A stretch of DNA of 6,198 bases, taken from positions 1-6,198 of the forward strand of contig NW_021829423.1 in assembly GCF_006345805.1 (NCBI RefSeq), written 5' to 3'. Under the pieces are notes generated by a model that searched no databases, was not told the origin of the DNA, and worked only from the letters and a program-made list of their open reading frames with translations. This stretch comes from Octopus sinensis (lineage: Eukaryota). Numbering within the stretch: position 1 is the first letter of the stretch; each line of letters opens with the position of its first letter. Of this stretch, positions 240 through 5,397 are shown in pieces. The translations under genes and the position numbers were made by a program.

Positions 240-716
240 ATTACATTGAAAAATGTGAGCACGAAAAGTAATATTCTTAAGATTATAAACCTGGAAAAGT
301 ACAGAACAAGGTATTACACCTGTAAAAGTATAGGACAAGCTATTACAAACTAGGACAAGTAAAGTAAAGAATAAGGAACTTTTTACTTAAAATATTGCAG
401 CAAAGAATGCCAGTTCTTCTAATTTATCACTCTTTACAGTTCTCATCTTTTAAATTTATTGTACAAAAATGTTCAGCTAATTAGTAAGTTTGTCTAATTA
501 GTCACTTTTTTCTGTATTTAAGGTAGTAAATTAGCCAAATTCTACTTAAATAAGTATAGTATTATTTGCAAACTATAATAAAATAAGTTTTAATATTCAA
601 ATTTTAATTTTAGTTGCAATATTTTAAGTAAAAAGTTTCTTAGCTTGTCCTGTACTTTTCCAGGTTTAGAATCTTAAGAATATGACTTTTCATGCTAAAA
701 AAATGTTCAATGTAAT
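240..716. repeat. Long imperfect inverted repeat (foldback/MITE-like): arms 240-399 and 615-716, 215-bp spacer
   Basis: By hand, 258-313 matches the reverse complement of 641-696 at 51/56. 372-399 matches the reverse complement of 615-642 at 27/28, and 240-250 matches that of 706-716 exactly. The left arm has about 58 extra bp (314-371). Confidence 0.9.
289..360 (+). repeat. 29-bp tandem repeat, two copies plus a partial copy, inside the left arm
   Basis: ACCTGGAAAAGTACAGAACAAGGTATTAC (289-317) vs ACCTGTAAAAGTATAGGACAAGCTATTAC (318-346), 25/29 identical. A partial copy, TAGGACAAG, lies at 351-359. Confidence 0.85.
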
Positions 717-2291: not shown

Positions 2292-2719
2292 TCTCTTCTG
2301 CATTTAACCATTTAATTTCTTCCTCTGGGAAAGGAGTTGGTTTCTAACAAAGATACAAAGCTCCAATTCTGGAATGTAGATAGAAACAATGCCACATTTT
2401 AAACATTAGAAAAGTTTTGCAGAATTTTACTGTTCCTCTTACACATCGTATTTGTAATGTGCGAGTCAGTTGGTTGGTTTCTTTTTCTGAAAATCCAAGC
2501 TTATCCAGACTGACAATTAGGCATTTACTTACAAAACCAAGTGCTCCAAATATTTTTGGCATAAACGTAAATTTGTAATTCGAACATAGAAGCTGGAGGT
2601 TTCGAAACCATTCTCCATAGTAATCTTCTTTCTCTTTGATTTTCATAGAGATATTCACATCAGCAGGACGTTGTGACGGTACATACTTTTCCTTGTCTAT
2701 CCCAAACAATATTCGGCCA
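2292..2719 (-). mobile_element. 5'-truncated, decayed non-LTR retrotransposon 3' end: restriction-like endonuclease (PD-(D/E)xK) domain plus putative 3' UTR, probably R4/Dong clade
   Basis: The minus strand at 2719-2663 reads WPNIVWDRQGKVCTVTTSC. After a frameshift, 2667-2395 reads PADVNISMKIKEKEDYYGEWFRNLQLL...FTFMPKIFGALGFVSKCL...LDKLGF...LQIRCVRGTVKFCKTF. This fits the RLE pattern RPDxxxxD...(E/D)xxxP...EKxxxY...PxxxGALG...LQ...GT, with the catalytic PD mutated to PN. The 3' boundary is placed at the start of the simple repeat and is approximate. Confidence 0.8.
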
Positions 2720-2875: not shown

Positions 2876-2967
2876 CACGTTTTTATCTCTCTCTATATAT
2901 GTATACAGAAACCGTCCAATAATCCATAAATGAAAAATATGCACCCGTATATTTGTCAATAGAGTGG

Positions 2968-3125
2968 GTATATTAATCGAAGAGTACAGTCGCCATATTT
3001 CTCTGAAGAGCGCATGGTTACATAATCGAGCTGTTACTTAACACTCCGTTGAACCCCTAGGGCGAAACCGATTAGTAAGATCAGCCGTATTGGATATATG
3101 ATATCGTACACTGCGATTAATATGT
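2968..3125 (+). ncRNA. Type I hammerhead ribozyme motif (minimal stem III, Penelope/retrozyme-like)
   Basis: Core boxes CTGAAGA (3003-3009) and GAAA (3064-3067). Stem II is closed by G3010-C3063 and C3011-G3062. Stem III is A3067-T3076 and C3068-G3075, the cleavage triplet is GTA (3075-3077), and stem I is TCT 3000-3002/AGA 3078-3080. Stem I is extended by CATAT/ATATG, GTAC/GTAC and a perfect 10-bp ATATTAATCG/CGATTAATAT. Confidence 0.7.
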
Positions 3126-3222
3126 ATATGGAGGTATAACAAAGAAATGCTTGTTCTCAGATCGTTCAGCTTTCGGTTCTTATAAAGGAACACCAAGTTC
3201 AAACTCTTGTTCTTTTCTCTCA

Positions 3223-3986: not shown

Positions 3987-4433
3987 GGCTCCCTGTCGGT
4001 TACGATGACGAGGGTTCCCGTTGATTCGATCAACGGAGCAACCTGCACGTAAGATTAACGTGTAAGTGGCTGAGTACTCCACAGACACGCGTATCCTTAA
4101 TGCAGTTCTCAGGGAGATTCAGTGTGACACAGAATGTGACAAGGCCGACAACTTTGGATTACAGCTACATCTCATTTTTGCCAGCTGGAGCAACGTAACA
4201 GAAAGTGTCTTGCTCAAGGACACAACGCACGGCTGGGAATCGAACTCACGAATATCCACCGTGAACCGAATATCCAAACCTATTTTTTTATTACCCACAA
4301 GGGGCTAAACATAGAGGGGACAAACAAGGACAGACATAGGTATTAAGTCGATTACATCGACCCCAGTGCGTAACTGGCACTTAATTTATCGACCTCGAAA
4401 GGATGAAAGGCAAAGTAACTCCCTCGCGCCTTC
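3987..4433 (-). mobile_element. tRNA-derived CORE-type SINE (octopus-like), head interrupted by a nested insertion
   Basis: The minus strand has a Pol III B box, GAGTTCGATTCCC (4247-4235), followed by GTTGTGTCCTTGAGCAAGACACTT (4226-4203), which resembles the CORE/MIR motif TGTGACCTTGGGCAAGT. The body to about 3987 resembles an abundant octopus repeat as I recall it. A probable 5' start, GAAGGCGCGAGG, lies at 4433-4422. Ends are approximate. Confidence 0.7.
4279..4416 (-). mobile_element. 5'-truncated SINE (body and A-rich 3' end) nested in the CORE-SINE head
   Basis: The minus strand reads ACTTTGCCTTTCATCCTTTCGAGGTCGATAAATTAAGTGCCAGTTACGCACTGGGGTCGATGTAATCGACTT...CTTGTGGGTAATAAAAAAATAGG. I recall this as the 3' part of a very abundant octopus SINE. 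It ends in an AATAAA/A-rich tail. Confidence 0.7.
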
Positions 4434-4645
4434 TCTGAATCTTTTCAGTTAGTGCCTCGTGACAGACCGAAGTGACCAGTAGTCATACGAAACTTCGTGT
4501 TTTACACTAGTTTCACTTTCCTAGAAGAGAGAGAGAGAGATTTTCTTATTATCAATAACCATATCGTGTTTTAATTTACAATTAGTGATCCCTTAATTTT
4601 TTTAATTAGATATTACGCTTTTTCTTTTTTTCTTTTCATTTCCAG

Positions 4646-5086: not shown

Positions 5087-5165
5087 TATGCCCAGACCTG
5101 TGTAGACAACAACCATATTTCGCTCACGCTAATAAAGAATTTATTGAAATATTTAGCGGGTGTAA

Positions 5166-5257
5166 GGTGGCGAGCTGGCAGAATCGTTAGCATGCCGGGC
5201 GAAATGCTTAGCGGTATTTCGTCTGCTGTTACGTTCTGAGTTCAAATTCCGCCGAGG
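5166..5257 (+). mobile_element. SINE tRNA-related head only (3'-truncated)
   Basis: A-box-like TGGCAGAATCG (5176-5186) and B-box-like GAGTTCAAATTCC (5238-5250). I recall this as the 5' end of the same abundant octopus SINE as 4279-4416. Confidence 0.72.
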
Positions 5258-5397
5258 AAGTGAAATTACACCGAAACATTGTGTCTGATTGTCCGCTAAC
5301 GTCAGAGCTTGTCTCCATGTGTTTTTACACACAAAGTATATACAGAGAAACCCTAAACGAATATACACATATATACATAATACATACGAACGTACGT

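What the first reader, a model, noticed from the sequence alone, without database searches (positions are those of the whole stretch)
2968..3125. Solitary type I hammerhead ribozyme with intact core and long stems I and II, on an island between two microsatellites
Seen: all conserved core positions are present in order (C3-A9 CUGAAGA, G10.1-C11.1, GAAA, U16.1, H17=A), with predicted cleavage after A3077. Stem II is a long imperfect hairpin: GC/GC, a G.G mismatch, GGTT/AACC, AATcGAG/CTCcGTT, TGTT/AACA and loop ACTT. Stem I has 3 bp, a 15-nt asymmetric bulge (3081-3095), then an extended helix to 2968/3125 that includes a perfect 10-bp match. That independent pairing makes a chance motif less likely. 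Stem III has only 2 bp, and AACCGATT (3066-3073) is one substitution from the palindrome AACCGGTT. Known: type I hammerheads with minimal palindromic stem III are typical of Penelope-like element terminal repeats and metazoan retrozymes, and often cleave as dimers. Inference: the ~340-bp island (2880-3222) is a solo PLE terminal repeat or retrozyme monomer of a possibly undescribed family. It is on the same strand as the putative host pre-mRNA, so it could act as an intronic self-cleaving element. Mismatches suggest partial decay.
Basis: partly seen in the sequence, partly recalled or inferred. Interest (0 to 1): 0.75.

Follow-up and report, generated by a model that had tools for sequence, protein, structure and literature searches.

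The report
Decayed long-armed hammerhead of Hydra retrotransposon
This is the broken-off, back-to-back end piece of a Penelope-type jumping gene whose predicted self-cutting RNA has an unusually long, conserved arm, but this particular copy has lost half of one stem and likely no longer cuts.

Summary
The hammerhead core letters are there (0 of 1000 shuffles give them), but the motif is not solitary and the long stem I is an artefact. It is one copy of a dispersed family (roughly several hundred arms) forming the 3' end of a Hydra-clade Penelope-like retrotransposon, in what is likely an octopus. The copy is two-armed: 2904-2990 is the inverted 3' end of the same element, which explains the 'independent' 10-bp helix. 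The true stem I 5' strand is deleted (17 nt), so the '15-nt bulge' is its orphaned partner. A3074 breaks the family's 10-nt self-complementary stem III. The active fold is predicted to cost 12.7-15.6 kcal/mol (family majority 2.1), so this copy is likely dead. No host gene is evident. The family motif looks selected: core positions vary about three times less than the rest, and the 54-nt stem II stays paired across two subfamilies differing at 12-14 sites. Published Hydra hammerheads have 12-26 nt there; a spike-moss PLE has 54. Cleavage is untested. The scan has noted long-armed Hydra hammerheads before, on other DNA of this and other genomes.

The parts
2904..2990 (-). Inverted arm: the last ~87 nt of the element's 3' end, running to the distal fixed end (site 2, includes the ~65-70 nt tail); carries no hammerhead core
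   Evidence: Reverse complement aligns with the 3' ends of L004, L005, L012, L016, L017, L020, L029; nhmmer model positions 136-224, E 1.2e-16
2987..2990 (.). 4-nt microhomology (CAGT) at the junction of the two arms
   Evidence: Letters fit both the inverted arm and the family's forward sequence; junction spanned by single contigs in runs X7 and X8
2987..3125 (+). Forward arm: 5'-truncated 3' UTR / pseudo-LTR piece ending at the proximal fixed end (site 1)
   Evidence: nhmmer model positions 33-158, E 5.9e-42; 8% from the subfamily majority
3000..3001 (+). Site of a ~17-nt deletion that removed the 5' strand of the family's distal stem I
   Evidence: Alignments; 3 of 61 aligned copies have such a gap
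3003..3009 (+). Hammerhead core C3-A9
   Evidence: Sequence; all core positions intact in 20 of 61 copies including this one
3010..3063 (+). 54-nt stem II domain, weakened here (-9.0 kcal/mol against -17.0 and -19.8 for the two subfamily majorities)
   Evidence: substitutions at 3015, 3029, 3030, 3038, 3061 relative to the majority
3064..3077 (+). GAAA core, stem III and predicted cleavage triplet (after A3077); A3074 breaks the family's 10-nt self-complementary stem III
   Evidence: Self-duplex -12.4 kcal/mol for the family majority, -1.3 for this copy
3078..3095 (+).
   Evidence: helix 1: 14 pairs, 83% of cells paired in the family
2897..2905 (.). Candidate target-site duplication, left copy of a 9-nt TA-rich word repeated at 3120-3128; low complexity and overlapping the arm ends, so uncertain
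   Evidence: The word occurs exactly twice in the window

Best explanation
The stretch 2904-3125 is a two-armed, 5'-truncated end piece of a Hydra-clade Penelope-like retrotransposon; it carries the family's type I hammerhead motif with a 54-nt stem II, and this copy is likely inactive because it has lost the 5' strand of distal stem I and the stem III palindrome. How it arose (inferred by analogy with the Anolis PLE studied in vitro): the element's GIY-YIG endonuclease nicked a TA-rich tract, reverse transcription started at two fixed sites in the RNA's 3' region, one per strand, and the two short cDNAs were joined head to head at a 4-nt microhomology. What the motif does in the parent (inferred, not shown): it likely cuts tandem precursor RNA about 45 nt before the proximal end, as a dimer through the 10-nt self-complementary stem III, possibly helped by the element's protein.
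For: Family. Link to coding sequence: RT-thumb-like and endonuclease frames upstream in L017 and L024; of 40 loci picked by protein alone, 30 carry the motif downstream on the same strand, 1 only on the other strand, 9 none (24 of 34 after dropping the two query loci and four duplicates or overlaps). Hydra diagnostics of Craig et al. 2021: CxCX5C linker, no cysteines between the GIY and YIG equivalents, CxxC before E and CxH after N, RWK and DKT in L089, DKT in L048. A 716-aa one-frame homologue (38% identity over 98% of the query) has as best structural match the I-TevI GIY-YIG domain (Z 6.8, rmsd 3.0, 83 of 92 residues). Two fixed 3' ends: 35 and 25 of 72 arms; in 8 of 11 head-to-head loci one arm ends at each site, none has both at the same site. 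Selection on the family motif: core 12/265 (4.5%) against non-core 245/1941 (12.6%) in protein-picked copies, base-matched permutation p 0.0025; stem II stability kept across 12-14 subfamily differences, 0 of 2000 random placements as stable. Decay of this copy.
Against: No cleavage assay exists for any copy. Pair covariation over the 61-row alignment is not clearly above shuffles (score 0.165 against 0.158 +/- 0.005, 47 of 500; pairs changed on both sides 14, 444 of 500 shuffles as high). In 0 of 61 copies do all three junction-closing pairs exceed probability 0.5, and even the majority sequences prefer a stem I slipped by two letters, 2.1 kcal/mol below the active fold. One of the four stem II chimeras was not destabilised (-18.1). 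Pfam finds neither RT nor GIY-YIG in these proteins, the model has mean pLDDT 44, Foldseek found nothing and Z 6.8 is below the level the tool calls clear, so the RT assignment rests on motifs that I recall and on the paper's description. No intact frame of this family was found and no tree with published Hydra sequences was made. This copy's core letters are all intact, as in only 20 of 61 copies.
Confidence: 0.86

Rival explanations
1. This copy still cleaves: the inversion supplies a substitute outer stem I, and the motif acts as a solitary, possibly intronic, self-cleaving element.
For: Core intact; the inversion helix forms with probability 0.998 and closes the domain; the same junction is present in runs under two organism labels.
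Against: Junction-closing pairs have probability 0.0; the active fold costs 12.7-15.6 kcal/mol in four contexts against a median of 4.8 for the 32 of 60 other copies that could be scored; dimer helix -1.3 kcal/mol; no second core in the contig; no host gene seen.
Confidence: 0.07
2. The unit is a monomer of a non-autonomous, tandemly repeated retrozyme that moves through circular RNA.
For: Type I core, short palindromic stem III and a size of a few hundred bases resemble metazoan retrozymes (PMC7229834); most copies are short.
Against: No short-period same-strand repeat in 60 loci; 5' ends vary and run continuously into RT/endonuclease sequence in long copies.
Confidence: 0.03
3. The parent is a PLE of another clade (Nematis or Neptune), or the long stem II is a neutral insertion without function.
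For: The Hydra linker is described as most like that of Nematis; no phylogeny was run; alignment-wide covariation is weak.
Against: CCHH and CX2-5CxxC are absent and all five Hydra motifs are present; the subfamily comparison favours kept pairing.
Confidence: 0.04

Closest known systems
Hydra clade of Penelope-like elements and their hammerheads (Craig et al. 2021, PMC8557442; passages, section 11 and supplement part 2 of 59 read)
   Same: C-terminal GIY-YIG without CCHH, CxCX5C linker, CxxC/CxH, RWK, DKT, 3' hammerhead with palindromic stem III, TA-rich targets, inverted 5'-truncated arm, tail on one arm only.
   Different: Stem II domain 54 nt against 12-26 nt in the 26 Hydra rows of File S2 (my count); tail about 65-70 nt against 30-40 nt described; 547 nt between stop codon and core in L086.
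Hydra-1_oBim of Octopus bimaculoides (same paper, Files S1 and S2)
   Same: Same clade; a family whose hammerhead reads almost letter for letter like the File S2 row lies in this genome too (L080, L085, compared by eye).
   Different: Different family: 43-45% amino-acid identity to the parent of this motif, 23-nt stem II, not matched by this family's model.
PLE-X1_sMoe hammerhead of spike moss (same File S2, marked as deviating from the canonical structure)
   Same: A PLE hammerhead with a domain II of 54 nt by my count, so long arms in PLE ribozymes have a printed precedent.
   Different: Plant, endonuclease-less, rDNA-targeting element; no sequence relation tested.
PAc / Poseidon of Anolis (Frangieh et al. 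2024, PMC11167929; passages and second half of the main text read)
   Same: Two fixed 3' ends separated by a tail, AT-rich targets, hammerhead in the pseudo-LTR.
   Different: Other clade, short hammerhead; there cleavage needed the protein and was dispensable for insertion in vitro.
Minimal dimeric PLE hammerheads (Cervera and de la Pena 2014, PMC4209133; parts 1-2 of 4 read) and non-LTR retrozymes (PMC7229834, passages; bioRxiv 10.64898/2026.07.22.740005, passages)
   Same: Type I topology, palindromic stem III suited to dimer cleavage, mostly single motifs from truncated PLEs.
   Different: Helix II of 4-8 bp there against 19-22 bp here; retrozymes are tandem and non-coding.

Membership tests
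Type I hammerhead ribozyme | Conserved core C3-A9, G10.1-C11.1, G12-A15.1, U16.1, H17 in order | tested here: met
   0 of 1000 shuffles
Type I hammerhead ribozyme | Three stems able to close the junction (family) | tested here: met
   Subfamily majorities: z -3.4 and -5.4 against mononucleotide shuffles, active fold 2.1 kcal/mol above the minimum; 79-89% of cells paired per helix
Type I hammerhead ribozyme | Three stems able to close the junction (this copy) | tested here: not met
   Pair probabilities 0.0; penalty 12.7-15.6 kcal/mol
Type I hammerhead ribozyme | Match to an Rfam hammerhead model | tested here: not met
   None among 34 rows up to E 10 for the window; intact family copies were not scanned
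Type I hammerhead ribozyme | Site-specific self-cleavage | not testable with these tools
   Only contigs, no raw reads, were offered
Hydra-clade PLE | C-terminal GIY-YIG endonuclease after the RT | tested here: met
   structural match to I-TevI for homologue P0001, Z 6.8
Hydra-clade PLE | CxCX5C linker; no CCHH in the endonuclease; CxxC and CxH around E and N | tested here: met
   L034/L086, L087, L090
Hydra-clade PLE | RWK and DKT motifs at the RT N-terminus | tested here: met
   Both in L089 (64-71% identical to L086, but no hammerhead core in the stretch held); DKT and a broken RWK in L048, which has the motif
Hydra-clade PLE | Hammerhead near the 3' end; insertion in TA-rich repeats | tested here: met
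Hydra-clade PLE | Single intact frame, element under 3 kb | tested here: inconclusive
   Longest open stretches in this family 254-338 aa; the one-frame form is seen only in homologue P0001
Hydra-clade PLE | Groups with published Hydra RTs in a tree | not tested
Hydra-1_oBim family | Same hammerhead and near-identical protein | tested here: not met
Neptune / Nematis PLE | CX2-5CxxC linker and CCHH motif | tested here: not met
Naiad PLE | N-terminal endonuclease | tested here: not met
   Endonuclease follows the RT thumb
Metazoan non-LTR retrozyme | Tandem monomers of 150-450 bp without coding capacity | tested here: not met
   0 of 60 loci tandem at that spacing; coding sequence upstream

The most novel reading that the evidence does not exclude
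The 54-nt stem II is a selected functional module of animal Hydra-clade hammerheads, a docking arm for the element's own RT/endonuclease that switches on dimer cleavage; such long-armed ribozymes are a widespread class in octopus genomes that standard covariance models miss, and their long two-site tails record a variant of PLE internal priming.
Probability: 0.3. Interest if true: 0.55.

Novelty: new variant of a known kind. Interest (0 to 1): 0.3.

Why it matters
The copy itself is an ordinary fossil, and a caution: PLE inversions manufacture convincing 'extended stem I' helices. The family matters modestly. Hammerheads in Hydra elements and Hydra elements in octopus are published, but a stem II twice as long as any listed for the clade, kept paired through subfamily divergence, suggests a function beyond cleavage. 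The role of PLE hammerheads is an open question (the Anolis one needs protein and is dispensable in vitro), and a large removable arm gives a direct handle to test protein assistance.

Tried and rejected
Rfam scan: no hammerhead, only microsatellite-driven miRNA and snoRNA rows below gathering score. Pfam: no RT or GIY-YIG match for six family or relative proteins and P0001. PDB sequence search with a profile: one unrelated row at E 0.77. ESM Atlas gave no result for either protein. Foldseek on the low-confidence model: nothing at E 0.001; the RT part has no structural support. Alignment-wide covariation: not above shuffles, as expected if most differences are decay after insertion. Expression: of 24 runs listed, RNA-type runs hold 0.00-0.09 of the words; the one laid (X1, RNA is a guess) has no contig on 3121-3300 and only short family pieces elsewhere; this is no evidence either way. 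An empty orthologous site was not seen in the four runs laid. A possible micro-exon at about 2650-2680 was rejected: it lies in a high-depth repeat. 'RNA viruses ... translation initiation' (PMC13725137, passages): its 'long helix II' is 6 bp, not comparable. Literature searches for a description of this family or of long-armed animal PLE hammerheads found none; Repbase, Dfam, subscription journals, 58 of 59 parts of the Craig supplement, the Cervera supplements and bioRxiv supplements were not seen and may hold it. Look-up of earlier findings by sequence found nothing.

Full report
OBSERVATION. A descriptor with these, two pairs of stem II, the stem III closure and three pairs of stem I hits once in the window and in 0 of 1000 dinucleotide shuffles. 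Rfam shows no hammerhead among 34 rows up to E 10. The free fold of 2960-3130 is not a hammerhead and is no more stable than shuffles (z -0.70).

FAMILY. The window is the whole contig C5894 of a 2.72-Gb genome. A search with 2880-3222 gave 52 matches from 40 scored of 1191 candidates, nearly all over window 3000-3129 at 80-89% identity. An exact 23-letter word occurs 32 times in the genome and in 4 of 61 aligned copies, which points to very roughly 500 arms. Aligned copies share about 17 nt just before the core that the window lacks; these pair with 3081-3095. The two arms meet at CAGT (2987-2990), which fits both. Single contigs from runs X7 and X8 span 2953-3210 with 0 other letters plus one gap, and 3 other letters, so inversion and deletion are not assembly errors; X7 may be the sample behind the assembly, X8 bears another organism label. 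3126-3222 matches none of the other loci held and has single-copy depth in X7, so it is flank.

PARENT. Long copies run upstream into frames that read like a PLE RT thumb (L017) and endonuclease (L024) (recognised from recall, Pfam gives no match). Searches with these two pieces gave 8520 and 11717 candidates, several families together. Of the 40 best loci, 30 carry the motif downstream on the same strand, 1 only on the other strand and 9 none; 24 of 34 after dropping the two query loci and four duplicates or overlaps. In L086 the core lies 547 nt after the stop codon. The protein has every diagnostic that Craig et al. [quoted passage not shown] The one longer homologue found, P0001 (716 aa, 38% identity, 1 hit of 701 candidates), has all of these in one frame; its model is poor overall (pLDDT 44), but residues 587-691 match the I-TevI GIY-YIG domain as the top row (Z 6.8, rmsd 3.0, 83 of 92 residues). 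The paper's File S1 lists Hydra-1_Obim from Octopus bimaculoides; its hammerhead row reads almost letter for letter like L080 and L085, which is my ground for calling this genome likely an octopus. That family is only 43-45% identical in protein and has a 23-nt stem II, so ours is another family. No tree with published sequences was made.

INSERTION ANATOMY. Of 72 arms in 60 loci, 35 end about 45-50 nt after the predicted cut (site 1) and 25 about 65-70 nt further (site 2, the end of my model); 12 end elsewhere. In 8 of 11 head-to-head loci, including this one, one arm ends at each site; in 3 one end is unclear; none has both at one site. A further case appeared (L101). Ends mostly abut TA- or CA-rich repeats. 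This matches the inverted 5'-truncated arm and one-sided tail described for PLEs and the two start sites of reverse transcription shown in vitro for the Anolis element (PMC11167929). That the same mechanism made this insertion is inference.

IS THE FAMILY MOTIF SELECTED? Two subfamilies (35 and 18 of 61 rows; 8 rows, the window among them, left out) both fold into three-way junctions (z -3.4 and -5.4 against 200 mononucleotide shuffles), with the active register 2.1 kcal/mol above a slipped one. Stem III is 10-nt self-complementary (duplex -12.4 kcal/mol), which suits the dimer cleavage described for metazoan PLE hammerheads (PMC4209133). Non-CpG core positions differ from the subfamily majority in 12 of 265 cells against 245 of 1941 for other positions among the 27 protein-picked copies (base-matched permutation p 0.0025), and 6 of 320 against 163 of 2317 among 32 DNA-picked ones, which are biased towards the window. 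The 54-nt stem II keeps 19-22 pairs and -15 to -20 kcal/mol across 12-14 subfamily differences; 0 of 2000 random placements of the same changes were as stable; three of four chimeras were destabilised (-11.4, -6.1, -0.4), one was not (-18.1). Against: pair counts on the whole alignment are not clearly above shuffles, the subfamily contrast is one evolutionary comparison, and no copy has all three junction pairs above probability 0.5 (0 of 61). By my count from File S2 the 26 Hydra rows have 12-26 nt between the core halves; the spike-moss PLE-X1_sMoe row has 54.

IS THIS COPY ACTIVE? Probably not. It is 8% from its subfamily majority. Besides the deletion it has changes in stem II (-9.0 kcal/mol) and A3074, which leaves a self-duplex of -1.3 kcal/mol. 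Forcing the active fold costs 12.7-15.6 kcal/mol in four contexts, against a median of 4.8 for the 32 of 60 other copies that could be scored, of which 4 lie at 14 or above. The inverted arm holds no core and there is no second core in the contig. The 41 frames of 60 codons or more look like microsatellite or repeat read-through (my reading), and the contig ends with the window, so the host pre-mRNA cannot be supported or excluded.

NOVELTY. Hammerheads in Hydra elements and a Hydra family in octopus are in print. Five searches found no description of this family or of long-armed animal PLE hammerheads; repeat databases and most supplements were not seen. The scan's own notes report long-armed Hydra hammerheads on other DNA of this and other genomes (11 findings, 8 shown); these are unchecked notes, and the docking-arm idea in my novel case comes from one of them. 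Verdict: a new variant of a known kind at family level, a likely dead copy at this locus; interest 0.3.

Noticed in passing
window 258-313 and 641-696: 56-nt inverted repeat, 91% complementary, 327 nt apart, with a second pair inside (342-404/610-672): looks like a miniature inverted-repeat element.
   Followed up: no
window ~4250-4450 and ~5150-5300: Two pieces of a very abundant repeat, each matching 20-23 of the other loci held; recalled as an octopus SINE, not checked.
   Followed up: no
window 2500-2710: High-depth repeat fragments in DNA-like runs; the AG...GT-bounded 30-mer near 2650-2680 lies inside one and is unlikely to be an exon.
   Followed up: partly
L080, L085; L073, L074, L077, L078; L071, L072, L075, L076: At least three further Hydra-type families in this genome: one like Hydra-1_oBim, one with a very short hammerhead-like motif (seen in L073, L074, L078), and one with open frames up to 474 aa in which my pattern found no convincing hammerhead in the stretch held.
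   Followed up: partly
L098/L099 (G000:C5:76435978 and 76436741): Two copies with identical ends facing each other tail to tail about 0.7 kb apart, unlike the usual head-to-head layout; possibly a later inverted duplication.
   Followed up: no
alignment A1, columns 124 and 126: C11.1-G12 form a CpG and are the most often lost core positions in genomic copies, so methylation-type decay would inactivate copies quickly.
   Followed up: partly
P0001, L071, L086, L088, L089: Pfam recognises neither RT nor GIY-YIG in these Hydra-type proteins, even a full 716-aa one; domain-based annotation will miss the clade.
   Followed up: partly
L089: The frame after the linker runs into sequence that reads like a Tc1/mariner transposase fragment (recalled motif), probably a nested insertion.
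   Followed up: no
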